A stretch of DNA of 32,000 nt from assembly GCA_934182605.1 (NCBI GenBank), contig CAKPRQ010000001.1, positions 119,783-151,782 of the forward strand, read 5' to 3'. The DNA comes from an uncultured Clostridia bacterium (lineage in GTDB: Bacteria > Bacillota > Clostridia > TANB77 > CAG-508). Made by a program: the position numbers and the translations under genes. Shown one piece after another: positions 597 to 15,565 of this stretch. Numbering within the stretch: the stretch's first letter is position 1; the number at the start of each line of letters is the position of its first letter. Below the pieces are notes generated by a model, which did not search any database, was not told the origin of the DNA, and saw nothing but the letters and a program-made list of their open reading frames with translations.

Positions 597-920
597 TTAT
601 GAACATTTTTCTATTTCCTCTTTTGTTAATCCTGTTGCATTTATTATAATTTGCATATTGACTTTTTGTTTTAATAAATTTTTTGCAATTTCTTTTTTGC
701 TTTCTGTCCTACCTTCTGCCCTACCTTCTTCTCTACCTTCTCTTCTGCCTTTTCTTCTACCTTCTGCCATCCCTTTTTCTTTTGCATATCTTTCACTTGC
801 CTTTCTATCCATTTCTGCCATTTGCCTCCTGAAACTTATTTCTACAACTTCTGGTATACTTGAAAGCTCTTCATATTGTCTTATTGCTTCTTCTAAGTTA
901 AAATTCTTTTTAGCTGCCAT
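597..920 (-). CDS. Candidate intragenic in-frame product (C-terminal 107 aa of the Rpn protein, starts MAAKKNFNLEE)
   Basis: In-frame ATG at 920-918 preceded by GGGAGGTGA (926-934, - strand) with a 5-nt spacer. This 8-nt match to the Firmicute SD consensus is built from the codons AGG GAG GTG. Confidence 0.3.
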   Translation of the reverse strand: MAAKKNFNLEEAIRQYEELSSIPEVVEISFRRQMAEMDRKASERYAKEKGMAEGRRKGRREGREEGRAEGRTESKKEIAKNLLKQKVNMQIIINATGLTKEEIEKCS

Positions 921-1523
921 GTCTCTCACCTCCCTATTTTTATCACTTAAAAATATACACCATTCATCTAATTTACTTTTTATTATATCTTCATATTTGC
1001 TACTGGGATTTAATATCTTTCTTTCTTCTTCAAATCTTGGTAATTGTATAAAGTATACAGTTGCTCCTTTTACAAAATAATCATTATCATTACTTATATG
1101 ACATTTTGTTATGTACTCTTTTACTTTTGGTATTTTATAATTTAATATATTTATAACTATTACTTCTTTTATTTTTGCGTATTCTTCTCCTGATTTCACT
1201 TGGCTTATTATTAATTTGCTTAAATAATATAATACTCTTTTATCATAATAAGAATATTTACCGTTCTGCATTTCTATATCTATTATTTTATCATTTTTTA
1301 ATTCTGCTTTTATATCTATTATTGCTTTTTTTCCATATACATTTTCCGCATCTAATTCCTCATTCTTATAAATATTTTTTACTTTAACTCTTTCACCTAG
1401 TATACTTTCTAATAAATCTTCTAATATATTTTCATTGCCTTTTTTCCCAAATATATTTTTAAATATTAAATCTGTTCTTGGTGTAATTCTTACTTCTTTA
1501 TTGTAATTATCAGTATTACCCAT
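597..1523 (-). CDS. Rpn/YhgA-like recombination-promoting nuclease (PD-(D/E)XK nuclease family, putative transposase)
   Basis: 308 aa. N-terminal TDLIFKNIFG motif and D..IDIEMQ nuclease core. C-terminal EGR/KG-rich repeat followed by a helix (IAKNLL...GLTKEEI), typical of this family. GGAGG SD 4 nt upstream of the ATG. Confidence 0.85.
   Translation of the reverse strand: MGNTDNYNKEVRITPRTDLIFKNIFGKKGNENILEDLLESILGERVKVKNIYKNEELDAENVYGKKAIIDIKAELKNDKIIDIEMQNGKYSYYDKRVLYYLSKLIISQVKSGEEYAKIKEVIVINILNYKIPKVKEYITKCHISNDNDYFVKGATVYFIQLPRFEEERKILNPSSKYEDIIKSKLDEWCIFLSDKNREVRDMAAKKNFNLEEAIRQYEELSSIPEVVEISFRRQMAEMDRKASERYAKEKGMAEGRRKGRREGREEGRAEGRTESKKEIAKNLLKQKVNMQIIINATGLTKEEIEKCS
706..770 (-). 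repeat. Imperfect tandem repeat (ctaccttct units) encoding the GRRKGRREGREEGRAEGR tract of the Rpn protein
   Basis: ctaccttct recurs at about 709, 721, 733 and 757 on the + strand. It also explains the spurious LPS-rich + strand ORF 658-1080. Confidence 0.7.
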
Positions 1524-4071: not shown

Positions 4072-6310
4072 AATCTTCCCCTCCTAACTGTGAATCTGCT
4101 ATTTCTTTATACGTTTTACAATTTTTCATAAGCTCTTCATGAGTACCTTTTCCTACTATTCTACCTTCCTCTAAAACTATAATTTGTTCAGCATCTATAA
4201 TTGTATTTATTCTTTGTGCTACTATTATTTTAGTTACATTTTTAAAATTATCTTTTAAAGCAGTCCTTAAATTCAAATCTGTTTTAAAATCTAAGGCAGA
4301 GAAACAATCATCAAAAAGATATATTGGGGCATCTTTTACTAAAGCTCTTGCTATAGATAATCTTTGTTTTTGTCCACCTGAAATATTAGTACCTGCTTGT
4401 GATATTATTTCTTCATATTTATTTTCCTTTTCATCTATAAATTCTTTAGCTTGTGCAATTTTAGCACATTTTTCTACAGTTTCCATAGATGCATCTTTCT
4501 TACCATATCTTAAATTAGACTCTATTGTTCCAGAGAGTAAACTTGGCTTTTGAGGTATATATGCGATTGTCTCATGTAAATCATGTAAATTTACATCTTT
4601 AATATTTACCCCATTTACTAAAAGTTCTCCACCAGTAACGTCATAAAATCTTGGTATTAATTTTAAAATAGTAGTTTTACCAGAACCCGTAGAGCCAATA
4701 ATCGCAATTGTTTCACCTGGTTTAGCCACAAAACTAATATCTTTTAACACATCCTCATCTGCATCGTCATATCTAAAAGATACATTTTTAAATTCAACAT
4801 AACCTATTTTATCTTTATTGAATTCTTTTGGCTCTTCAGGATCTTTAATATCAATCTTCATATTTAAAACTTCTGATATTCTATTGATTGAAACTAATGC
4901 TCTTGGGAACATTATAAACAACATAGAAATCATTAAGAATGACATCATAACTTGCATTGTATATTGTATAGCAGCCATCATATTACCAACTTGTAAATTT
5001 GAATCTGCAATTTTGTCTGCACCTACCCATACTATTAAAAGTGTTAATAAATTCATTATAATAGTCATAGCAGGCATCATAAATGCCATAACTTTATCTA
5101 TAAAGAACATTGTATTTGCCAATTCAAAGTTTGCTTTATCGAAACGTTTTTCTTCATATTTTTGCGTTCCGAAAGCCCTTATAACCATAATTCCATTTAA
5201 AGTTTCTCTTGAGATAAGATTCAATTTATCTATTAAGCCTTGGAATATTTTAAATTTAGGCATACTTATAAATAACATAATAAGGATTAAAAGTAAAATC
5301 AAACCAAAACCCAATGCTAACACCCATAACATAGAACTTGCTGTTCTAGTAATCATGATTATAGCACCTATCATCATTATTATGGCAAAGAATACTATTC
5401 TTAAAACCATAAATATTAAATTTTGAACTTGCATAACATCATTTGTAGTTCTTGTTATTAATGATGAAGCTCCTATTTTAGAAAATTCTTTTTCTGAAAA
5501 TTTTTGGACCTTTTCAAAAATATCTTGTCTTAAATTTCTGGCAACAGCTGCAGATAATTTAGCAGCTATATAGCCTACTGTAATAGAAGCTACAATTATA
5601 ATTAGAGTAGTGGCAATCATTATTGCACCTATTTTAAACATATATTCAGTTTGAATATCTTCTATCTCTAAGCCTACTTCCGAATAAAATGCTTTAGTAA
5701 AAGTTAATGCCACTTGTGAAAGCATAGTTTCTTCCATATTCTTAGCATTTTCTATAGAAGTTTCTAACAATTCAGGTGTCATAGAGTTTAAAACTAACGG
5801 CATTATTTTATTTAATTCACTAAAATTAAATTCTCCATCACTATTGCTATTTTCACCTTCCGTATTAGCTATTGGTAATTCCAAATGAGTAATAACATCT
5901 ACTACAACCTTATCTGTAACCATAAAAATACTATCTAATTGTGACATTACTTCTTTATTGTCCATTACATCCTCATCTAAAACATATATGTTACTGTTCT
6001 CTAATAATGGATATTTTTCTTCATACTTTTGCGTAATTTCATCATTTGAACCTGATTTAAGTAATATATAATTATCTTCTACCACTTCTCTATCTTCATC
6101 ACTCATAAAATTTTTTAATATCTCTAAAGAATTTTCGCTTATAGCCTTAGGAGTAGCGTCTTCCACACCATTAGATTGAATTCCTATATTAACTATATCG
6201 GCCATATAATCTGGTAATCGTAAGTTACCCATAGCTTGTATGTATATTAATATTATTGTTATTATTAGAACTATAATGTATGGCTTTAAGTATTTTAAAA
6301 TATTTTTCAT
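4064..6310 (-). CDS. ABC exporter permease/ATPase fusion, degenerate-site subunit, with a large insertion between TM1 and TM2
   Basis: Walker A GSTGSGKTT, canonical signature ISGGQKQR, Walker B IYLFDD (Asp where the catalytic Glu is expected), and VAQRIN in place of the H-loop. The ORF track starts at TTG 6328. I prefer ATG 6310 (MKNILKYLK), which is preceded by GGAAAGGAAAA. Confidence 0.88.
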   Translation of the reverse strand: MKNILKYLKPYIIVLIITIILIYIQAMGNLRLPDYMADIVNIGIQSNGVEDATPKAISENSLEILKNFMSDEDREVVEDNYILLKSGSNDEITQKYEEKYPLLENSNIYVLDEDVMDNKEVMSQLDSIFMVTDKVVVDVITHLELPIANTEGENSNSDGEFNFSELNKIMPLVLNSMTPELLETSIENAKNMEETMLSQVALTFTKAFYSEVGLEIEDIQTEYMFKIGAIMIATTLIIIVASITVGYIAAKLSAAVARNLRQDIFEKVQKFSEKEFSKIGASSLITRTTNDVMQVQNLIFMVLRIVFFAIIMMIGAIIMITRTASSMLWVLALGFGLILLLILIMLFISMPKFKIFQGLIDKLNLISRETLNGIMVIRAFGTQKYEEKRFDKANFELANTMFFIDKVMAFMMPAMTIIMNLLTLLIVWVGADKIADSNLQVGNMMAAIQYTMQVMMSFLMISMLFIMFPRALVSINRISEVLNMKIDIKDPEEPKEFNKDKIGYVEFKNVSFRYDDADEDVLKDISFVAKPGETIAIIGSTGSGKTTILKLIPRFYDVTGGELLVNGVNIKDVNLHDLHETIAYIPQKPSLLSGTIESNLRYGKKDASMETVEKCAKIAQAKEFIDEKENKYEEIISQAGTNISGGQKQRLSIARALVKDAPIYLFDDCFSALDFKTDLNLRTALKDNFKNVTKIIVAQRINTIIDAEQIIVLEEGRIVGKGTHEELMKNCKTYKEIADSQLGGEDYE

Positions 6311-6382: not shown

Positions 6383-6415
6383 TAATGATATGAACGAATT
6401 TACAAATAATTTACA

Positions 6416-6447
6416 AAAAGGCGGCAGTAATTATACCGCCGCCTTTT
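6416..6447 (-). terminator. GC-rich rho-independent terminator closing the higher-GC cassette (can act on either strand)
   Basis: aaaaggcggc (6416-6425) pairs perfectly with gccgcctttt (6438-6447). On the - strand it is followed by ttttt. Confidence 0.65.
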
Positions 6448-6463
6448 ATGAATTTCAAAGTTG

Positions 6464-9248: not shown

Positions 9249-11837
9249 TTATTTTTCTAACCATTTAACTAAATTTAAATTTTCCTCACGTAAAATCATA
9301 TCTGTTTTAGGTACTACTCTAAAAGTATATCCATAATTTCCACTAATATTCAATTCTATAGTAGCCTCATACTCACAAACTGTTTTATTTAAGGAATCAA
9401 ATACTTCTACTGAAATACAATTCATAGGTAAAATTTCTTTTTCCTCTATTACTCCTGAACTTAATATTTTGCCATAATATAATTGTACTTCTATATCTTC
9501 CGAACTTATATTTTCTAATTCTACTCTACATTTTACTGTAATAGCATCTCCAACATTTGTTATTGTATGCTCTAAATTATCTACTTGTTCTAATTTCATT
9601 TTATCCCAATTATTACGTAAATTTTCTTTCCACTTTATATATTCTTCTATTTCTGCTGTACCTTCATAATGATTTTGTGTCAATTCGCAAAGTGGCATAT
9701 ATAGTTTTTCGGTATATTCAACAAGCATTCTTGCGGTACTATATCTCCAAGAGTTTGATATTATAGATTCTTTCATTATTTTTAGCCATTCATCTGAAAA
9801 GCCACTTCTATTTAAATTATAATAGATTGGAATAATTTCTTTTTCTAATATATCGTAGATACTTTCACTGTCTGCTCTATCTTGTGCTTCATAAGACTCA
9901 TACATTGCATTTGTTCCTATAGCCCAACCATTCTTTCTTTTAGCATCATAACCTTCTGCCCACCAACCATCTAAGACACTAAAATTAATAACTCCATTGG
10001 TTGCAGCTTTTTGACCACTTGTTCCAGAAGCCTCCATAGGTCTTCTAGGATTATTTAACCAAACATCTACACCACTTATTAAATATCTTGCAACAGCTAT
10101 ATTATAATTTTCAATCACAAATATTTTTCCTTTAAACTGTGGCATTTGAGAAATTTCATTAATATATTTTAAAACATTTTGACCTTCAACATCTGCTGGG
10201 TGAGCTTTTCCTGAAAATATTAATTGCACTGGTCTTTCAGGATTACTTAATAACTTAGTTATTCTCTCTAAATCTTTAAATATTAAAGCTGCCCTTTTAT
10301 ATGTTGCAAACCTTCTAGCGAAACCTATTGTTAATGCATTTGGATTTAGCTTTGATACTATATCTTTTATTTCATCATAAGGTTTTCCATACTTTTTATA
10401 TCTTTCAACTGTATCTTTTTTTACTAATGCAAATAATTTTTCTTTTCTAACAATATGTTCTCTCCATAACTTTTCGTCTGGAATACTTCTTATATCTTTC
10501 CATATTTCTGGCTGATAAATCTTATCTTGCCAATATGGAGTTAAATATCTATTATATAATTCTTTTATATTTTGGCCTAACCATGTACAAGTATGAATAC
10601 CATTTGTAATATACTCAATCGGTGCTTCTGAAGTAGCTATATTACTCCATAATTCTCCAAACAATTCTTTTGAAACTTCTCCATGCAATTTACTTACGCC
10701 ATTTTTCTTACCTGCTATTTTTAAAGCTAATATTGCCATATTAAATCCTTTTTCAAGTTCATCATTCTTAGTTGGTTTCATACCTAATTTTAAAAATTCT
10801 TCTCTATCTAAGCCTATTCTACCCCAAAAGTCTTTAAAATATTTTTCAACTAATGATATTGGGAAAACATCATTGCCAGCAGGTACAGGAGTATGTGTTG
10901 TGAATACTGTCTTTGAAGATACTTTTGCCTTTGCTACTTCAAAAGGAACATGTTCTGTTTCCATTATATCTCTTATTAATTCTACAGTTACAAAAGATGA
11001 ATGTCCTTCATTCATATGGTATACTGTAGGTTTTATTCCTAACTTATTAAATAAATTAGTTCCTGCCATACCTAAAATAATTTCTTGTCTAATTCTCATA
11101 TCTTGGTCTCCGCCATATAATCTTAATGTTATTGGGCGTATTGTCTCGTCATTTTCAGGTATATCTGTATCTAATAAATATAAATTAACTCTTCCTACTG
11201 CTATTTTCCATACTTTTAAATAAACTTTTTTCTTACCAAATCTTACATATGTAATTAAATCATCCCCGCTCTCTGTTTTAACAGGGAATATTGGTAAACT
11301 ATATAAATCAATATTCTTATATTCAGAACTTTGTGAGCCATCTGGATTTATTATTTGATGAAAATATCCATTTTTATATAGGAGTCCTACTGCTACAAAT
11401 GGTAAACCTAAATCACTAGCTGATTTTAGATGGTCACCAGATAAAATTCCAAGGCCACCTGAATATATTGGTAATATTTCATCTAAACCATATTCGGCTG
11501 AAAAATATGCGATTAAATCCTTATCATTATTTGGATATTTCTTTTTAAACCACGTATTTTTACTCTCCATATAAGCATCAAAGTCTTCTACCATTTTATC
11601 ATATTTTCTTAAAAAATCGTAATTTTCAGATGCTCTTTCTAATTTTCTTTGATCTACTATTTTTAGAAATTTTACTGGATTTTTTCCTGCTTCTAACCAT
11701 AAGTCTAAATCAATCATTTTAAATAATTGTAAAAATTCTGTGTTCCAAGACCACCACAAATTGCTTGAAACATCGAATAATCTGTTTATTCTTTTAGGTA
11801 ATTGTGGATTAACTGTTATTCTATTAAATATGTACAT
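9249..11837 (-). CDS. glgP: Alpha-glucan (glycogen/maltodextrin) phosphorylase, GT35 alpha-glucan family
   Basis: 862 aa. GGLGILSGDHLKSASDLGLP, and EASGTSGQKAATNG containing the PLP-lysine motif. GGAGG SD. Confidence 0.88.
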   Translation of the reverse strand: MYIFNRITVNPQLPKRINRLFDVSSNLWWSWNTEFLQLFKMIDLDLWLEAGKNPVKFLKIVDQRKLERASENYDFLRKYDKMVEDFDAYMESKNTWFKKKYPNNDKDLIAYFSAEYGLDEILPIYSGGLGILSGDHLKSASDLGLPFVAVGLLYKNGYFHQIINPDGSQSSEYKNIDLYSLPIFPVKTESGDDLITYVRFGKKKVYLKVWKIAVGRVNLYLLDTDIPENDETIRPITLRLYGGDQDMRIRQEIILGMAGTNLFNKLGIKPTVYHMNEGHSSFVTVELIRDIMETEHVPFEVAKAKVSSKTVFTTHTPVPAGNDVFPISLVEKYFKDFWGRIGLDREEFLKLGMKPTKNDELEKGFNMAILALKIAGKKNGVSKLHGEVSKELFGELWSNIATSEAPIEYITNGIHTCTWLGQNIKELYNRYLTPYWQDKIYQPEIWKDIRSIPDEKLWREHIVRKEKLFALVKKDTVERYKKYGKPYDEIKDIVSKLNPNALTIGFARRFATYKRAALIFKDLERITKLLSNPERPVQLIFSGKAHPADVEGQNVLKYINEISQMPQFKGKIFVIENYNIAVARYLISGVDVWLNNPRRPMEASGTSGQKAATNGVINFSVLDGWWAEGYDAKRKNGWAIGTNAMYESYEAQDRADSESIYDILEKEIIPIYYNLNRSGFSDEWLKIMKESIISNSWRYSTARMLVEYTEKLYMPLCELTQNHYEGTAEIEEYIKWKENLRNNWDKMKLEQVDNLEHTITNVGDAITVKCRVELENISSEDIEVQLYYGKILSSGVIEEKEILPMNCISVEVFDSLNKTVCEYEATIELNISGNYGYTFRVVPKTDMILREENLNLVKWLEK

Positions 11838-11882
11838 AATTATATTATCCTCCTTAGTTATTTTTAAATTTTCAATAGCTTT

Positions 11883-11911
11883 ATTATATTTTATATTATA
11901 TATTTTGTCAA
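11883..11911 (-). promoter_or_regulatory. Consensus sigma-A promoter for the phosphorylase-pyk unit
   Basis: On the - strand: TTGACA (11911-11906), 17 nt, TATAAT (11888-11883). Confidence 0.55.
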
Positions 11912-11943
11912 TATAAAAAAATAGGTTTGTAAAAAAAAAATGC

Positions 11944-12072
11944 TACAGTTCAGTAACTATTTTATAAAATCGTGATATATAGCTATTTGCGAGTCAAGAC
12001 CCGGATTGTGTCACCCTAGATATGTTTTGACTAAAAATAGCTATATATCACGATTTTATAAAGGATTCTGTA
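11944..12072 (+). repeat. Hairpin repeat element, copy 1 (conserved 46-nt core inside perfect 28-bp inverted arms)
   Basis: Arms 11961-11988 and 12035-12062 are exact reverse complements. Core 11989-12034 is gcgagtcaagacccggattgtgtcaccctagatatgttttgactaa. The strand given is the core orientation. Confidence 0.85.
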
Positions 12073-12128
12073 AAATTAAAAAAAATTATCCTAACTTATA
12101 TGCTAGAATAATTTATATGTATTTAATT

Positions 12129-12380
12129 TTAAATTTTTCTATAAATAAATATTGCACCTATCATCCCAATAATACTTGCTACATTCACGTTTACCATTAA
12201 TGCAAATGTTAATTTTATTATACCCATATCCAATTCTAATGGTGTTGACAATCCAAACCTTTCTCCATATGCTAACCAACTTAAAAAATCTACGCCCTTT
12301 GCCGCATTACCTAATAGACCGCCTAATACTAAACCACATAATATAAATAAAATTAACAGCCAGCCGCCTTTGTTTTTCAT
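12129..12380 (-). CDS. Small membrane protein, DUF4321-like
   Basis: 83 aa. WLLILFILCGLVLGGLLG N-terminal TM and a C-terminal IIGMIGAIFIYRKI helix. This resembles my recollection of the DUF4321 family. GGAGG SD. Confidence 0.6.
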   Translation of the reverse strand: MKNKGGWLLILFILCGLVLGGLLGNAAKGVDFLSWLAYGERFGLSTPLELDMGIIKLTFALMVNVNVASIIGMIGAIFIYRKI

Positions 12381-12413: not shown

Positions 12414-12749
12414 TTAATTTGTTTTCTGCCAGAACCAGTCTAAACTATTATCAATACTTTTTCTGTTTTTTACTTTTGCTTCTATATCGTCCACCCATAA
12501 GTAAGAGATAAATGATATAAATATAAATATGAAGTTAATTGACATACAATTTAATATTGTGTTCTTCATTTCAGCTAAATCTGGATTTCTTAATGCTACT
12601 ACATAATATATTAATAATCCTAAAAAGACAACCAATGCTCCAGCTGGCAATAAACTATTTTTTGTAGTTTTTCCTAAAAGAATAGTACCAATTAAAAGAA
12701 CTAATATTAATAATAAAGTGAATGGATTTGAAATATCTATAATTCCCAT
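12414..12749 (-). CDS. Hypothetical membrane protein (3 predicted TM)
   Basis: 111 aa. GAGGAGG SD upstream of the ATG. Lies 21 nt downstream of glmM. Confidence 0.6.
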   Translation of the reverse strand: MGIIDISNPFTLLLILVLLIGTILLGKTTKNSLLPAGALVVFLGLLIYYVVALRNPDLAEMKNTILNCMSINFIFIFISFISYLWVDDIEAKVKNRKSIDNSLDWFWQKTN

Positions 12750-12770
12750 ATTTACTCCTCCTCTTTTTAT

Positions 12771-14135
12771 TTATTTTAAGACATCTTCTATTAAATTAGC
12801 TAAACTTTTAGCTTTTTCAGTTATAAAATTTATGTCCTTTCCTTCTATCATAACTCTTACTAAAGGTTCTGTTCCTGAAGCTCTTACTAAAACTCTACCT
12901 TTATTCTCTAAAAGTTTGTTTATTTCTTCTATTGCATCACAAATAATCTTATTACTATTATAATCTTTTTTCTTCTCATTGTCAACCCTTGCATTTATTA
13001 AAATTTGAGGATATTGTTGAAATACTTCCCAGATTTTAGATGGTTTCCAAGATTTCTCTAATAAAATTTTTATTAAAAATAATGATGTTAAAATTCCATC
13101 TCCTGTATTATTATACTTTCTTAATATTATATGTCCTGATTGTTCTCCTCCTAGTACATAATTTCCTTCTAGCATTCTTTCTAATACATACCTATCGCCT
13201 ACTTTTGTTTGCTCAAATTTTATATTATTATTTGAGACAAATTCGTGTAATCCAATATTGCTCATTACTGTTGCTACAAGTGTATCACTTTCTAGTTCAT
13301 TCTTTTCTTTTAAGTATTGAGAGATTATTGCTAAAAGTGCATCTCCATCTATAATTCTACCGGTTTCGTCTACAGCTAACATTCTATCTCCATCGCCATC
13401 GTATGCGATACCTAAATCATATTTATTTTTTACAACACATTCTTTTAACATTTCTAAATGTGTTGAGCCACATTTTTCGTTTATATTTATTCCATTTGGT
13501 TTATTATTTATAATATCAAATTTAATATTTAATTTTTTAAATAGATTTTCTGCCATCTTATAAGTAGCTCCATTTGCTGTATCTATCAGTACCTTGAAAT
13601 CATTTTTATTTAATGCAAGTATATCTTTAAGAATGTCTAAAATATATTCCTCATATTCATTATTTAATTCATAAGCTAATGTTAATTGCCCAATTTTATC
13701 ATATCCTACATTTAAGCTACGTAATGTTTCCTCATCTTCTAACAAAGCTTCTATTTCTTCTTCTATTTCATCTGAAAGCTTCATTCCTTTATTACTAAAA
13801 AATTTTATTCCATTATATTCATAAGAATTGTGTGAAGCTGATATAACAACTGCTGCATCCGCTTTTTCTTTTACAGTTAAATACGATACAACTGGAGTTG
13901 GTGTTACTCCTAATGATTTTACATTTGCTCCTACGCTTAAAAATCCTGCAATCATTGCACATTCTAACATATTTCCTGATATTCTAGTATCTTTTCCTAT
14001 TAATATAACTGGTGTGTGTCCCATAGTTTTAGCTAACACAGTTGCTCCTGCTTTAGCTACTCTAAAAGCAAATTCTGGTGTAAGATTAATATTTGCAATG
14101 TCTCTTATACCATCTGTTCCAAAATATTTTCTCAT
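12771..14135 (-). CDS. glmM: Phosphoglucosamine mutase
   Basis: 454 aa. MRKYFGTDGIRD N-terminus, active-site loop SASHNSYEYNGIKFF, metal site YDGDGDR. Confidence 0.92.
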   Translation of the reverse strand: MRKYFGTDGIRDIANINLTPEFAFRVAKAGATVLAKTMGHTPVILIGKDTRISGNMLECAMIAGFLSVGANVKSLGVTPTPVVSYLTVKEKADAAVVISASHNSYEYNGIKFFSNKGMKLSDEIEEEIEALLEDEETLRSLNVGYDKIGQLTLAYELNNEYEEYILDILKDILALNKNDFKVLIDTANGATYKMAENLFKKLNIKFDIINNKPNGININEKCGSTHLEMLKECVVKNKYDLGIAYDGDGDRMLAVDETGRIIDGDALLAIISQYLKEKNELESDTLVATVMSNIGLHEFVSNNNIKFEQTKVGDRYVLERMLEGNYVLGGEQSGHIILRKYNNTGDGILTSLFLIKILLEKSWKPSKIWEVFQQYPQILINARVDNEKKKDYNSNKIICDAIEEINKLLENKGRVLVRASGTEPLVRVMIEGKDINFITEKAKSLANLIEDVLK

Positions 14136-14267: not shown

Positions 14268-14519
14268 CTATGCCTTTATTGCTATGAGATACACGACCCA
14301 TGAAAGAAGCGAGAGAAATGTTGTCAAGAAAAATACCACCAAGGCATTTTCAAGAAACTCAATCAATCCATACATTTTAGTATTCTTGACGGAGCGTAAC
14401 AACACTGCCAAAATGACAGTTATCACAAAAAGTGCCAATACAATATATCCATCATGGAAAAAACTGCCAACGGCTTCAAGCACTCCCATATTCAGCCAAC
14501 TGTCGATGTACTCAGACAT
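14268..14519 (-). CDS. Small 2-TM membrane protein of unknown function, in a higher-GC cassette
   Basis: 83 aa. AGAGGAG SD. Two hydrophobic helices (YIVLALFVITVILAVLL and ALVVFFLTTFLSLLSWVVYLIAI). 98 G+C of 252 nt (39%) by hand count, with GC-ending codons atypical of the neighbouring genes. Confidence 0.55.
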   Translation of the reverse strand: MSEYIDSWLNMGVLEAVGSFFHDGYIVLALFVITVILAVLLRSVKNTKMYGLIEFLENALVVFFLTTFLSLLSWVVYLIAIKA

Positions 14520-14562
14520 AACTAACTCCTCTAATTATAGGGTTAATAAAAACATTATTATA

Positions 14563-14591
14563 ATTTTATCACTTCTAAGGCATTATGTCAA
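14563..14591 (-). promoter_or_regulatory. Sigma-A type promoter of the second cassette, 3 nt after the fmt stop
   Basis: On the - strand: TTGACA (14591-14586), 17 nt, TAAAAT (14568-14563). Confidence 0.5.
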
Positions 14592-14593
14592 AT

Positions 14594-15565
14594 TCAACTT
14601 AAAATTGTGTTACCTCTCAAATAATCTAATATATTCATTTTTTTAGCATTTTCTGCTTGAATTTCTAAAATTGAGATTATTCCATTTTTTGCCTTTAGAA
14701 ATAAACCTTTTTTTGAATCTGCTATTAATACATCTCCATAATTATTCTTATTTAATTCTTCTAATGGACAATTATATTGTTGTATAAAATCTTTTTCATC
14801 TATAACTTGAGCTTTCCAAATCTTAATCTTTTTATTGTTTATAAATGTATACGCTCCCATTATAGGATTTAGACCTCTTATTAAATTTTTTATTTCTTGA
14901 GCAGTATTAAGCTCCCAATTTATTTTTGCAATACTTTTATCTAACATTGGAGCATATGATGGTTCTTCTTGTCCTACACTTGTCTGAGGTATCCTTCTTA
15001 TTCTTCCTTTTTCTATTCTTCTAATTGTTTCTACTAATAGTTTTGAACCTATTTTGGCTAATTTATCCCAAACTTCTCCTAGCGTTTCGTCTTCACCAAT
15101 TTCAACTTCTTCTTTTAATAACATATCTCCTTCATCCATTTTTTCATTTATAAGCATAGTTGTTATTCCAGTTTTTTTATCTCCATTTATAACTGCCCAT
15201 TGTATTGGTGCTGCACCTCTATATTTAGGAAGAAGTGAGCCGTGAACATTTATGCAGCCTATTTTAGGAAGGTCTAATATTTCTTTAGGTATTATTTTAC
15301 CATAAGCAACAACACATATAAGATCTGGTTTTTTAGACTTTATTTTATCTATTAATTCATTATTACCTTTTAATTTTAAAGGTTGTTCTATCTCTAAACC
15401 ATTTTCTAATGCATATTCTTTTACAGGCGAATATACAAATTTTAACCCTCTACCTTTTTGTTTGTCTGGATTTGTGATTACTAAACTTACATTATAACCT
15501 GCCTCAACTAATTCCTGTAAAGATTCCTTAGCAAAATCAGGTGTTCCCATAAATATTATATTCAT
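14594..15565 (-). CDS. fmt: Methionyl-tRNA formyltransferase
   Basis: 323 aa. MNIIFMGTPDFA N-terminus and INVHGSLLPKYRGAAPIQ catalytic motif. Lies downstream of def. Confidence 0.93.
   Translation of the reverse strand: MNIIFMGTPDFAKESLQELVEAGYNVSLVITNPDKQKGRGLKFVYSPVKEYALENGLEIEQPLKLKGNNELIDKIKSKKPDLICVVAYGKIIPKEILDLPKIGCINVHGSLLPKYRGAAPIQWAVINGDKKTGITTMLINEKMDEGDMLLKEEVEIGEDETLGEVWDKLAKIGSKLLVETIRRIEKGRIRRIPQTSVGQEEPSYAPMLDKSIAKINWELNTAQEIKNLIRGLNPIMGAYTFINNKKIKIWKAQVIDEKDFIQQYNCPLEELNKNNYGDVLIADSKKGLFLKAKNGIISILEIQAENAKKMNILDYLRGNTILS

What the first reader, a model, noticed from the sequence alone, without database searches (positions are those of the whole stretch)
11944..12072. Three-copy intergenic element: conserved ~45-nt core held inside long perfect inverted arms whose sequence differs between copies
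Three intergenic loci (11961-12062, 18490-18578, 23772-23860) carry the same core. Copy 1 is gcgagtcaagacccggattgtgtcaccctagatatgttttgactaa. The copy 2 reverse complement is gcaagtcaagaacccgattgttaaccccagatatgttttgactaa. Copy 3 is gtaatcaaagacccggattgttagccccagctatgtttttgatag. Each core sits between exactly complementary arms of 28, 22 and 22 bp. Copies 1 and 2 share only the 12 arm bases nearest the core (atatagctattt), and copy 3 has essentially unrelated arms, yet all arms pair perfectly. The core itself folds into an 8-9 bp inner stem (agtcaagac / gttttgact). That stem has one non-Watson-Crick position, conserved in all three copies: G-T on the copy 1 strand, A/C on the other. It closes a conserved 22-23 nt C-rich loop (CCGGATTGTTAGCCCCAGATAT). 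Conserved pairing with divergent sequence is the reverse of an ordinary MITE, where the termini are conserved. It suggests a structured RNA or a DNA hairpin recognised by a protein. I do not recognise it as any named repeat or Rfam family. Copy 1 lies between the last gene of the glmM operon and the consensus promoter of the phosphorylase gene, so it may also serve as that operon's terminator. A T10 run follows 21 nt downstream on the - strand.
Basis: seen in the sequence. Interest (0 to 1): 0.7.

Follow-up and report, generated by a model that had tools for sequence, protein, structure and literature searches.

The report
New hairpin-centred MITE family in gut Clostridia
The three hairpins are the conserved middle parts of a small non-coding transposon (a MITE, about 140-160 bp, with terminal inverted repeats and 8-bp target duplications) that is scattered in many copies through a group of uncultured low-GC gut Clostridia; it is a new family of an ordinary kind of element, not a new kind of RNA.

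Summary
Three copies of a ~45-nt core sit inside perfect 28/22/22-bp arms.

A genome-collection scan found over 100 stretches carrying the core, in 14 species-level MAGs of uncultured Clostridia. That gave 126 pattern-matching copies, and 161 places by nhmmer.

Complete copies are 140-162 bp. They end in GT(T/A)AC...GT(A/T)AC with 11-15-bp terminal inverted repeats and carry 8-bp direct target duplications: 17 of 30 are perfect and 4 have one mismatch, against about 0.9 expected by chance. Window copy 2 is intact (18464-18603, duplication ATAAATTT).

Filled and empty sites differ between the window and a relative that is ~87% identical. Copies show no orientation bias relative to genes and no G.T versus A.C asymmetry. 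Rfam has no match.

The arms fall into two related subfamilies, so they are not unrelated sequences. What is unusual is that the central hairpin, not the terminal repeat, is the best-conserved part across species, with heavy compensatory change. No transposase was found. An IS66-like enzyme is an untested lead.

The parts
11942..12078 (+). MITE copy 1, about 137 bp. The left terminus is mutated (GCTACAGTTCAG) and the right terminus has decayed (..CTGTAAAATTA).
   Evidence: I8; nhmmer full-length model 17-133
11934..11941 (.). Probable target-site duplication of copy 1 (AAAAAAAT), left copy. The right copy is at 12079-12086. This is tentative, because the sequence lies in A-runs and the same 8-mer occurs 7 times in the window.
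18464..18603 (-). MITE copy 2, an intact 140-bp element. Termini are GTAACAACTCAG / CTGAGTTGTTAC. Arms 18490-18511/18557-18578, core 18512-18556 (core strand is the - strand).
18456..18463 (.). Perfect 8-bp target-site duplication of copy 2 (ATAAATTT), left copy. The right copy is at 18604-18611.
23736..23884 (+). MITE copy 3 (arm subfamily B). The left terminus GTTACAATTTACAGC is intact at 23736-23750, and the right terminus is lost after ..ACTAATATTTATTTA (23875). Arms 23772-23796/23836-23860. There is no element at the syntenic site of the relative L066.
   Evidence: (I18)
24975..24995 (-). Remnant of a fourth copy (GATTTCAAAATATTAATATAT: one arm plus the edge of the inner stem). The relative L066 has the whole element at the same site (1925-2035).
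6413..6427 (.). Empty insertion site (ACAAAAAG|GCGGCAG, directly before a G+C-rich hairpin). The relative L034 carries a full MITE here, with ACAAAA(A)G on both sides.

Best explanation
[quoted passage not shown] This is a 140-162-bp non-coding DNA transposon, present at roughly one copy per 10 kb in the window and in many copies in at least 14 related uncultured low-GC Clostridia species.

Anatomy, from outside to inside:
1. an 8-bp target-site duplication;
2. the terminus GT(T/A)AC, which opens an 11-15-bp terminal inverted repeat;
3. a poorly conserved, partly unpaired linker of about 15-20 nt on each side;
5. an 8-9-bp inner stem with a conserved G.T;
6. a 22-23-nt C-rich loop.

Shown here: multicopy dispersal, terminal inverted repeats, a fixed 8-bp duplication, insertion and absence polymorphism between relatives, an intergenic position usually just after a gene's 3' end, and decay into half-copies.

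Inferred: the element is moved in trans by a DDE-type transposase that makes 8-bp staggered cuts. The GTAA/GTWAC ends plus the 8-bp duplication point to the IS66/ISBst12 family as a lead, but no such gene was found.

Also inferred: the long fold-back is kept because lineages that transpose well need it. A cruciform or hairpin would bring the two ends of an element shorter than one DNA persistence length together, or the intermediate may be single-stranded. Intramolecular template switching may also contribute. This would explain compensatory changes between subfamilies with no sign of selection on individual copies.

The function of the conserved loop is unknown. My best guess is a protein contact used during transposition.
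For: - Spread: the core pattern occurs in over 100 stretches, almost all from 14 MAG species of uncultured Clostridia. There are 126 pattern-matching copies plus the window's 3 (129 listed), and 161 places by nhmmer.
- Termini and duplications: complete copies end in GTTAC...GTAAC with clean 8-bp direct repeats. Of 30 copies with both termini, 17 have a perfect and 4 a 7/8 duplication, against about 0.9 in random pairings. Window copy 2 has ATAAATTT on both sides.
- Mobility: the window is ~87% identical to BRZ_PK__bin13. Copy 3 is absent at the syntenic L066 site. L066 and L034 have copies where the window has none, or only a remnant, including a clean empty site at window 6413-6427.
- Not strand-specific: orientation relative to genes is unbiased, and arm mismatches are 19 G.T against 17 A.C.
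- Shared ends: other small elements with the same GTWAC..TTCAG ends and 8-bp duplications carry unrelated interiors. So the ends, not the core, define what is mobilised.
- IS66 lead: IS66-family inverted repeats start GTAAGCG or GTAACCG (PMC12888890). That IS66 makes 8-9-bp duplications is from my own memory of ISfinder.
Against: - No autonomous element was found. There is no pair of GTWAC ends with a target duplication more than 250 bp apart in 789 kb, no long intragenomic repeat encoding a transposase, and no DDE transposase among the window ORFs scanned with Pfam.
- Only the terminal 5 nt are invariant between subfamilies. The rest of the terminal repeat differs, although the two ends of one element always match. 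That is unusual if a single transposase recognises all of them.
- Only 30 of about 160 copies have both termini recognisable under strict criteria.
- The central ~95 nt are better conserved across species than the ends. The plain MITE model does not predict this.
Confidence: 0.85

Rival explanations
1. The element is a structured non-coding or cis-regulatory RNA. On this view the hairpin with its conserved loop is a functional RNA transcribed from one strand.
For: Covariation in both stems is strong. The G.T position pairs only on the core strand (117 of 123 copies). The covariance model scores the core strand far above the opposite strand.
Against: Orientation relative to flanking genes is random, and copies lie in tandem, divergent and convergent intergenic regions alike. 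Arm mismatches show no G.U-over-A.C excess (19 against 17). Sites are not conserved between genomes that are 87% identical. Terminal inverted repeats and target duplications show that the unit is DNA that moves. No Rfam family matches; the only sub-threshold hits are plant miRNA hairpins. No internal promoter-like site was found in copy 1.
Confidence: 0.04
2. The element is a REP/REPIN-like or IS200/IS605-type hairpin, recognised as folded single-stranded DNA and moved by an HUH (RAYT/TnpA) enzyme.
For: Structure is conserved while stem sequence varies, the loop is conserved, and the copy number in intergenic DNA is high. This is the pattern expected for structure-specific recognition.
Against: A fixed 8-bp target duplication and terminal inverted repeats are not produced by HUH enzymes (established knowledge of IS200/IS605 and REP/RAYT). 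No Y1-transposase domain was found among the window ORFs scanned with Pfam. The element lacks the short REP unit with a conserved 5' tetranucleotide.
Confidence: 0.04
3. Individual copies have been taken over by the host as bidirectional transcription terminators or mRNA 3'-end stabilisers. This does not exclude the MITE origin.
For: In tandem gene pairs the element sits directly after the upstream gene's 3' end: the median distance from core centre to gene end is 90 nt, about half an element. The long stem is bracketed by AAAA on one side and TTTT on the other in most copies. Copy 1 is followed on the - strand by a T10 run and lies between the DUF4321 gene and the phosphorylase promoter. In L066 the element even supplies the stop codon of holA.
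Against: 29 copies lie between divergent genes, where no terminator is needed. Stems are A+T-rich with a very large loop, and the consensus terminator scan finds none at copy 1. Private mutations are about as frequent in hairpin columns as elsewhere, roughly 0.15 against 0.13 per column by my own count from the per-column output; the numbers are small. Sites turn over quickly.
Confidence: 0.2
4. The central stem-loop is an independent cargo module, such as a binding site for a host or transposon protein, that hitch-hikes in a GTWAC-ended MITE chassis and is itself the selected part.
For: Across seven species the central ~95 nt are far better conserved than the linkers and most of the terminal repeat. 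In an ascertainment-corrected sample of 19 copies, the first half of the core and the proximal arms are nearly invariant. The same ends carry other, unrelated hairpin cargos.
Against: There is no evidence for any binding protein. The second half of the loop does vary. Conservation could simply reflect a few successful master copies or recent spread between species.
Confidence: 0.2

Closest known systems
Bacterial MITEs (e.g. Neisseria Correia elements, Streptococcus pneumoniae RUP, Coxiella QMITE1/2 [PMC5896051], Acinetobacter MITEAba12 [PMC6382973])
   Same: Size of about 100-200 bp, no coding capacity, terminal inverted repeats, a fixed-length target duplication, many dispersed intergenic copies, strong fold-back potential, and insertion polymorphism between relatives.
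   Different: There is no sequence similarity to these families (comparison from memory only, not tested). Here only 5 terminal nt are invariant across subfamilies, and the best-conserved part is a central asymmetric stem-loop. The stems evolve by compensatory change. The parent IS is unknown.
IS66 family / ISBst12 subgroup insertion sequences
   Same: Ends beginning GTAA(G/C)C (PMC12888890). Window copy 2 ends in GTAAC. Target duplications of 8-9 bp (from memory of ISfinder).
   Different: Most copies begin GTTAC, not GTAA. No IS66-type transposase or long element was found. The link is a lead, not a result.
REP / REPIN elements mobilised by RAYT
   Same: High-copy intergenic hairpins whose structure is conserved.
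   Different: REPINs have no terminal inverted repeats of this type and no target duplication. No RAYT was found among the window ORFs scanned.
Integron attC sites
   Same: Pairing is conserved while sequence diverges, and recognition is as a folded strand.
   Different: attC sites lie in cassette arrays next to an integrase and have no target duplication. These copies are dispersed singly between housekeeping genes.
Eukaryotic MITE-derived hairpins (plant MIR precursor families in Rfam)
   Same: Long, near-perfect A+T-rich fold-backs. These are the only sub-threshold Rfam hits.
   Different: Scores are 30-34 bits against gathering thresholds of 94-140. This is a generic hairpin resemblance, not homology.

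Membership tests
MITE (non-autonomous DNA transposon) | Small size and no coding capacity | tested here: met
   Complete copies are 140-162 bp. Only 2 of 127 copies overlap a predicted ORF.
MITE (non-autonomous DNA transposon) | Terminal inverted repeats | tested here: met
   GT(T/A)AC plus 6-10 further complementary nt at both ends. Window copy 2 has GTAACAACTCAG / CTGAGTTGTTAC.
MITE (non-autonomous DNA transposon) | Target-site duplication of fixed length | tested here: met
   8 bp. Of 30 copies, 17 are perfect and 4 are 7/8; the control gives about 0.9 of 30.
MITE (non-autonomous DNA transposon) | Multiple dispersed copies and presence/absence polymorphism | tested here: met
   161 places in 789 kb. 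Filled and empty sites differ between the window and L034/L066.
MITE (non-autonomous DNA transposon) | A related autonomous IS with the same ends | tested here: inconclusive
   None was found in the window or in 757 kb of related loci.
IS66/ISBst12-derived element | GTAA ends, 8-9-bp duplication, DDE_Tnp_IS66 transposase in the genome | tested here: inconclusive
   The ends are partly compatible (GTAAC in some copies, GTTAC in most), and the 8-bp duplication is met. No transposase was found or searched for genome-wide.
REP/REPIN | No target duplication; association with a RAYT gene | tested here: not met
   An 8-bp duplication is present. No Y1 transposase was found among the window ORFs scanned.
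Any Rfam RNA family | Score at or above the family's gathering threshold | tested here: not met
   0 hits at gathering thresholds in the whole window. The best sub-threshold hit is 33.5 bits against 100.
Intrinsic (Rho-independent) terminator | Short G+C-rich stem, small loop, T-run directly after the stem | tested here: not met
   No terminator-like site in 11800-12200. The stem is A+T-rich and the loop region is 46 nt. Function as an atypical terminator is not testable here.
Strand-specific cis-regulatory RNA | Fixed orientation relative to the regulated gene | tested here: not met
   ++ 26, -- 37, divergent 29, convergent 15.

The most novel reading that the evidence does not exclude
The central stem-loop (conserved 22-nt C-rich loop, conserved G.T, stems kept only as pairing) may be a structure-specific recognition module that transposition needs. 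It would be recognised as a cruciform or single-strand hairpin. That would make this a structure-dependent MITE superfamily: GTWAC ends, an 8-bp duplication and interchangeable hairpin cargos, moved by an enzyme that reads shape rather than terminal sequence. The enzyme might be non-classical. One candidate is the PD-(D/E)XK 'putative transposase' (Rpn-like) encoded at window 597-1523, whose homologue in L067 is directly followed by a diverged copy of the hairpin.
Probability: 0.12. Interest if true: 0.65.

Novelty: new member of a known kind. Interest (0 to 1): 0.3.

Why it matters
- It explains a conspicuous repeat that makes up a visible share of the intergenic DNA in a clade of small-genome gut Clostridia, including a species found in human gut metagenomes.
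- It gives annotators a model, so that these hairpins are not mistaken for RNA genes or terminators.
- The copies are useful markers of strain and species divergence, because they turn over quickly. They also visibly remodel gene ends: one supplies the stop codon of holA in a relative.
- For mobile-DNA specialists, the mildly interesting points are that the middle of the element, not its ends, is the most conserved part, and that the whole fold-back evolves by compensatory change.

Tried and rejected
- Rfam at gathering thresholds on the whole window, and at E<=10 on copy 1: nothing but generic hairpin hits.
- Viral contig scan for the core: 0 hits.
- Search for an autonomous IS, three ways. 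GTWAC end pairs with a target duplication up to 5 kb apart: none above 250 bp. Long intragenomic repeats among the loci: only two candidates, both non-transposase proteins with weak, sub-threshold N-terminal methylation-motif hits. TIR-like 12-mers away from cores: only further small MITEs and chance matches.
- Pfam on 32 window ORFs (nearly all of those over 80 aa not overlapping a longer gene; those at 12718-12963 and 14284-14646 were not scanned): no DDE or HUH transposase. There is one PD-(D/E)XK 'putative transposase' at 597-1523, with no GTWAC ends around it.
- Internal promoter or terminator in copy 1: none.
- Test for selection on individual copies: private mutations in an ascertainment-corrected set of 19 copies. 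There were too few events, and no difference between the hairpin and the rest.
- Within-species variation at copy 1 in three other assemblies: no informative differences; one assembly is identical and the other two are 1 nt shorter.
- Literature searches for a described Clostridia MITE of this type: none found in the held library.
- Ideas rejected on sequence grounds. IHF-site consensus in the core: no match by eye. CRISPR or attC arrays: the copies are dispersed singly.

Full report
**Observation.** The three loci are as described.
- The repeat finder reports the 28-nt perfect arms of copy 1 (11961-11988/12035-12062) and the arms of copy 3 (25 nt at 96%, 22 perfect).
- Copy 2 folds with 22-bp perfect arms and, in addition, a 13-bp outer stem, GTAACAACTCAG(G)/CTGAGTTGTTAC.
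- Fold energies are 7.5-11 standard deviations below shuffles on both strands.
- The core consensus has no match in 100 shuffles of the window.
- A covariance model built later finds exactly these three full copies in the window.
- The window is ~27% G+C with nearly all genes on the - strand.
- Copy 1 lies between a DUF4321 gene (last gene after glmM) and the glycogen phosphorylase gene, whose consensus promoter is confirmed at 11911->11883. Copy 2 lies between priA and a divergent membrane-protein gene. Copy 3 lies between topA and a Xaa-Pro peptidase gene.

**More copies.** Rfam gives nothing at gathering thresholds, and the viral collection has no copy.
- 100 of these stretches come from 14 MAGs labelled uncultured Clostridia or Clostridium sp. 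(gut samples). The other two, from Omnitrophota and Saprospiraceae, are chance matches without arms.
- With the window this gives 129 matches (126 family copies plus the window's 3, once the chance matches are removed). nhmmer finds 161 places, 33 of them without the exact pattern.
- The window is ~87% identical in DNA to one of these MAGs, BRZ_PK__bin13. The same species occurs in human gut metagenomes.

**What the copies show.** The arms are not arbitrary.
- They fall into two related subfamilies. Subfamily A is ..TTGATATATAGCTATTT / AAATAGCTATATATCAA.., with inner stem GTCAAGAC/GTTTTGAC. Subfamily B is ..CTTATATATTAATATTTT / AAAATATTAATATATAAG.., with inner stem ATCAAAGAC/GTTTTTGAT. The 5-8 bp furthest from the core are hypervariable but complementary.
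- Pairing is very well kept. 97.2% of cells are paired against 79.7% in column shuffles and 34-49% when partners are slid. 16 of 22 pairs show double changes, in 447 double-change cells.
- The outer 3 bp of the inner stem occur in six fully paired versions.

**True extent of the element.** Similarity between copies continues about 40 nt beyond the arms on both sides and ends abruptly at GTTAC on the left and GTAAC on the right. In some copies, including window copy 2, the two are swapped.
- Directly outside these ends lie 8-bp direct repeats, for example AATTAATT, TAACGATT, TATGCAGT, GATTTTTT, AACTTTTT, TTTCTAAA and AACTCCCT.
- Among 30 copies with both termini recognisable, 17 have a perfect and 4 a 7/8 duplication. 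Random pairing of flanks gives about 0.9 of 30.
- Element length is 140-162 bp.
- Window copy 2 is an intact 140-bp element (18464-18603) flanked by ATAAATTT on both sides.
- Copy 1 spans about 11942-12078, with a mutated left end (GCTAC), a decayed right end and AAAAAAAT on both sides. This duplication is tentative because the context is A-rich.
- Copy 3 keeps its left end (23736) but has lost the right one.

**Mobility.** Comparison with the syntenic loci of BRZ_PK__bin13 gives four informative sites.
- The copy 3 site has no element in L066.
- L066 has a full copy where the window keeps only a 21-nt half-arm remnant (24975-24995).
- L066 has a copy at the 3' end of holA where the window has none. 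There the element provides the last seven codons and the stop: the window reads ..GTGNEE* and L066 reads ..GTGYSSIKNK*.
- L034 has a copy where the window shows a clean empty site with a single ACAAAAAG, directly before a G+C-rich hairpin (window 6413-6427).

Copies also decay into halves and occur in short tandem arrays.

**Against a strand-specific RNA.**
- Relative to flanking ORFs, the core strand is co-oriented in 26 tandem cases and anti-oriented in 37. A further 29 copies lie between divergent genes and 15 between convergent genes.
- Arm mismatches are 19 G.T against 17 A.C.
- Private mutations in an ascertainment-corrected sample are about as frequent inside the hairpin as outside, though the numbers are small.
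- In tandem gene pairs the element abuts the upstream gene's 3' end. That fits either insertion next to A/T-rich terminator regions or purging of copies that disrupt promoters. It leaves a secondary terminator-like role open.

**What remains unusual.**
- In a full-length alignment across seven species, only the terminal 5 nt and the central ~95 nt (proximal arms plus core) are conserved. The rest of the terminal repeat and the linkers differ between subfamilies, while the two ends of each element stay complementary.
- In Lapin-004__bin73 the outer modules occur as X..Y', X..X' and Y..Y'. This suggests that one arm is occasionally copied onto the other.
- At least three to five other small elements share the GTWAC..TTCAG ends and the 8-bp duplication but carry unrelated hairpin interiors. 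The ends therefore define mobilisation, and the core is not strictly required for it.
- The first half of the core (CAAGACCCGGATTGT) and the proximal arms are almost invariant even in unbiased copies. The second half of the loop has alternative versions.

**Mechanism.**
- Shown: this is a DNA element with terminal inverted repeats that duplicates 8 bp of target and is gained and lost between close relatives.
- Inferred: it is moved in trans by a DDE transposase making 8-bp staggered cuts.
- Lead for the family: GTAA-type ends with 8-9-bp duplications are the signature of IS66/ISBst12. IS66 repeats beginning GTAAGCG or GTAACCG are documented in PMC12888890, and ISBst12 is listed as an IS66 subgroup in PMC8024623. 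The duplication length is from my memory.
- No transposase was found in the window or the related loci. The only transposase-like gene in the window is a PD-(D/E)XK 'putative transposase' (PF12784) at 597-1523, which has no GTWAC ends around it.
- The maintenance of the fold-back is most simply explained by selection on the transposing lineages, possibly helped by intrastrand template switching. A cruciform or hairpin would juxtapose the ends of an element shorter than a DNA persistence length, or the intermediate may be single-stranded. This is inference.

**Comparison and verdict.** The element meets every testable defining feature of a MITE, and it fails those of REP/REPIN, attC, Rfam families and classical terminators (see the membership table). 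I found no prior description in the held literature. It is a new family of a known kind. The 'reverse of a MITE' reading arose from seeing only three copies and only their inner parts.

Noticed in passing
window 16135-18380 (- strand): priA is split into three overlapping or adjacent ORFs: 17613-18380 (3'BD domain), 16535-17683 (helicase and Zn ribbon) and 16135-16575 (PriA_C). Two other assemblies of the same locus show a split PriA as well, but a third encodes one 750-aa PriA. This could be a frameshifted pseudogene, strain variation or an assembly error.
   Followed up: partly
window 597-1523 (- strand); L034 553-1232; L067 5785-6740: This gene encodes a PD-(D/E)XK nuclease family 'putative transposase' (PF12784, Rpn/YhgA-like; E 2.4e-43). 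It contains a 12-nt tandem repeat (678-785) coding for a (GRxE)n tail. The ortholog in BRZ_PK__bin13 is broken. A 29%-identical homologue in L067 is directly followed by a diverged copy of the hairpin element.
   Followed up: partly
L013 7695-7841, L087 4210-4356, L026 7452-7632, L082 3178-3254, L004 ~2191, L053 ~199, L082 ~4967: Other small MITE-like elements share the same GTWAC..TTCAG ends and 8-bp target duplications but have unrelated hairpin interiors. Together they look like a superfamily with interchangeable cargo.
   Followed up: partly
L066 3362-3498, compared with window 26296-26310: In the relative, a MITE inserted at the 3' end of holA (DNA polymerase III delta) replaces the last codons and supplies the stop codon (..GTGYSSIKNK* against ..GTGNEE*).
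   Followed up: yes
L027 ~6020-6270, L076 2054-2250, L010 2571-2819, L068 1287-1452, L030 5237-5507: Two or three copies of the element lie head-to-tail or nearly adjacent, forming short tandem arrays.
   Followed up: no
window 18668-20122 (+ strand): This is the only long + strand gene in the region, and the GC skew flips locally. It encodes a 484-aa membrane protein with an acidic low-complexity N-terminal part and a lysine-rich tail, and has no Pfam family. An A+T-rich hairpin follows at 20124-20169.
   Followed up: partly
L006 ~4734-4800: Four direct repeats of AAAGATGTCCAYA lie next to a chance TIR-like match. They may be DnaA-box-like or iteron-like.
   Followed up: no
window 6421-6450: A G+C-rich hairpin (GGCGGCAGTAATTATACCGCCGCC) followed by TTTTAT lies directly beside the empty MITE target. 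Insertions seem to favour A/T runs flanking terminator-like hairpins.
   Followed up: no
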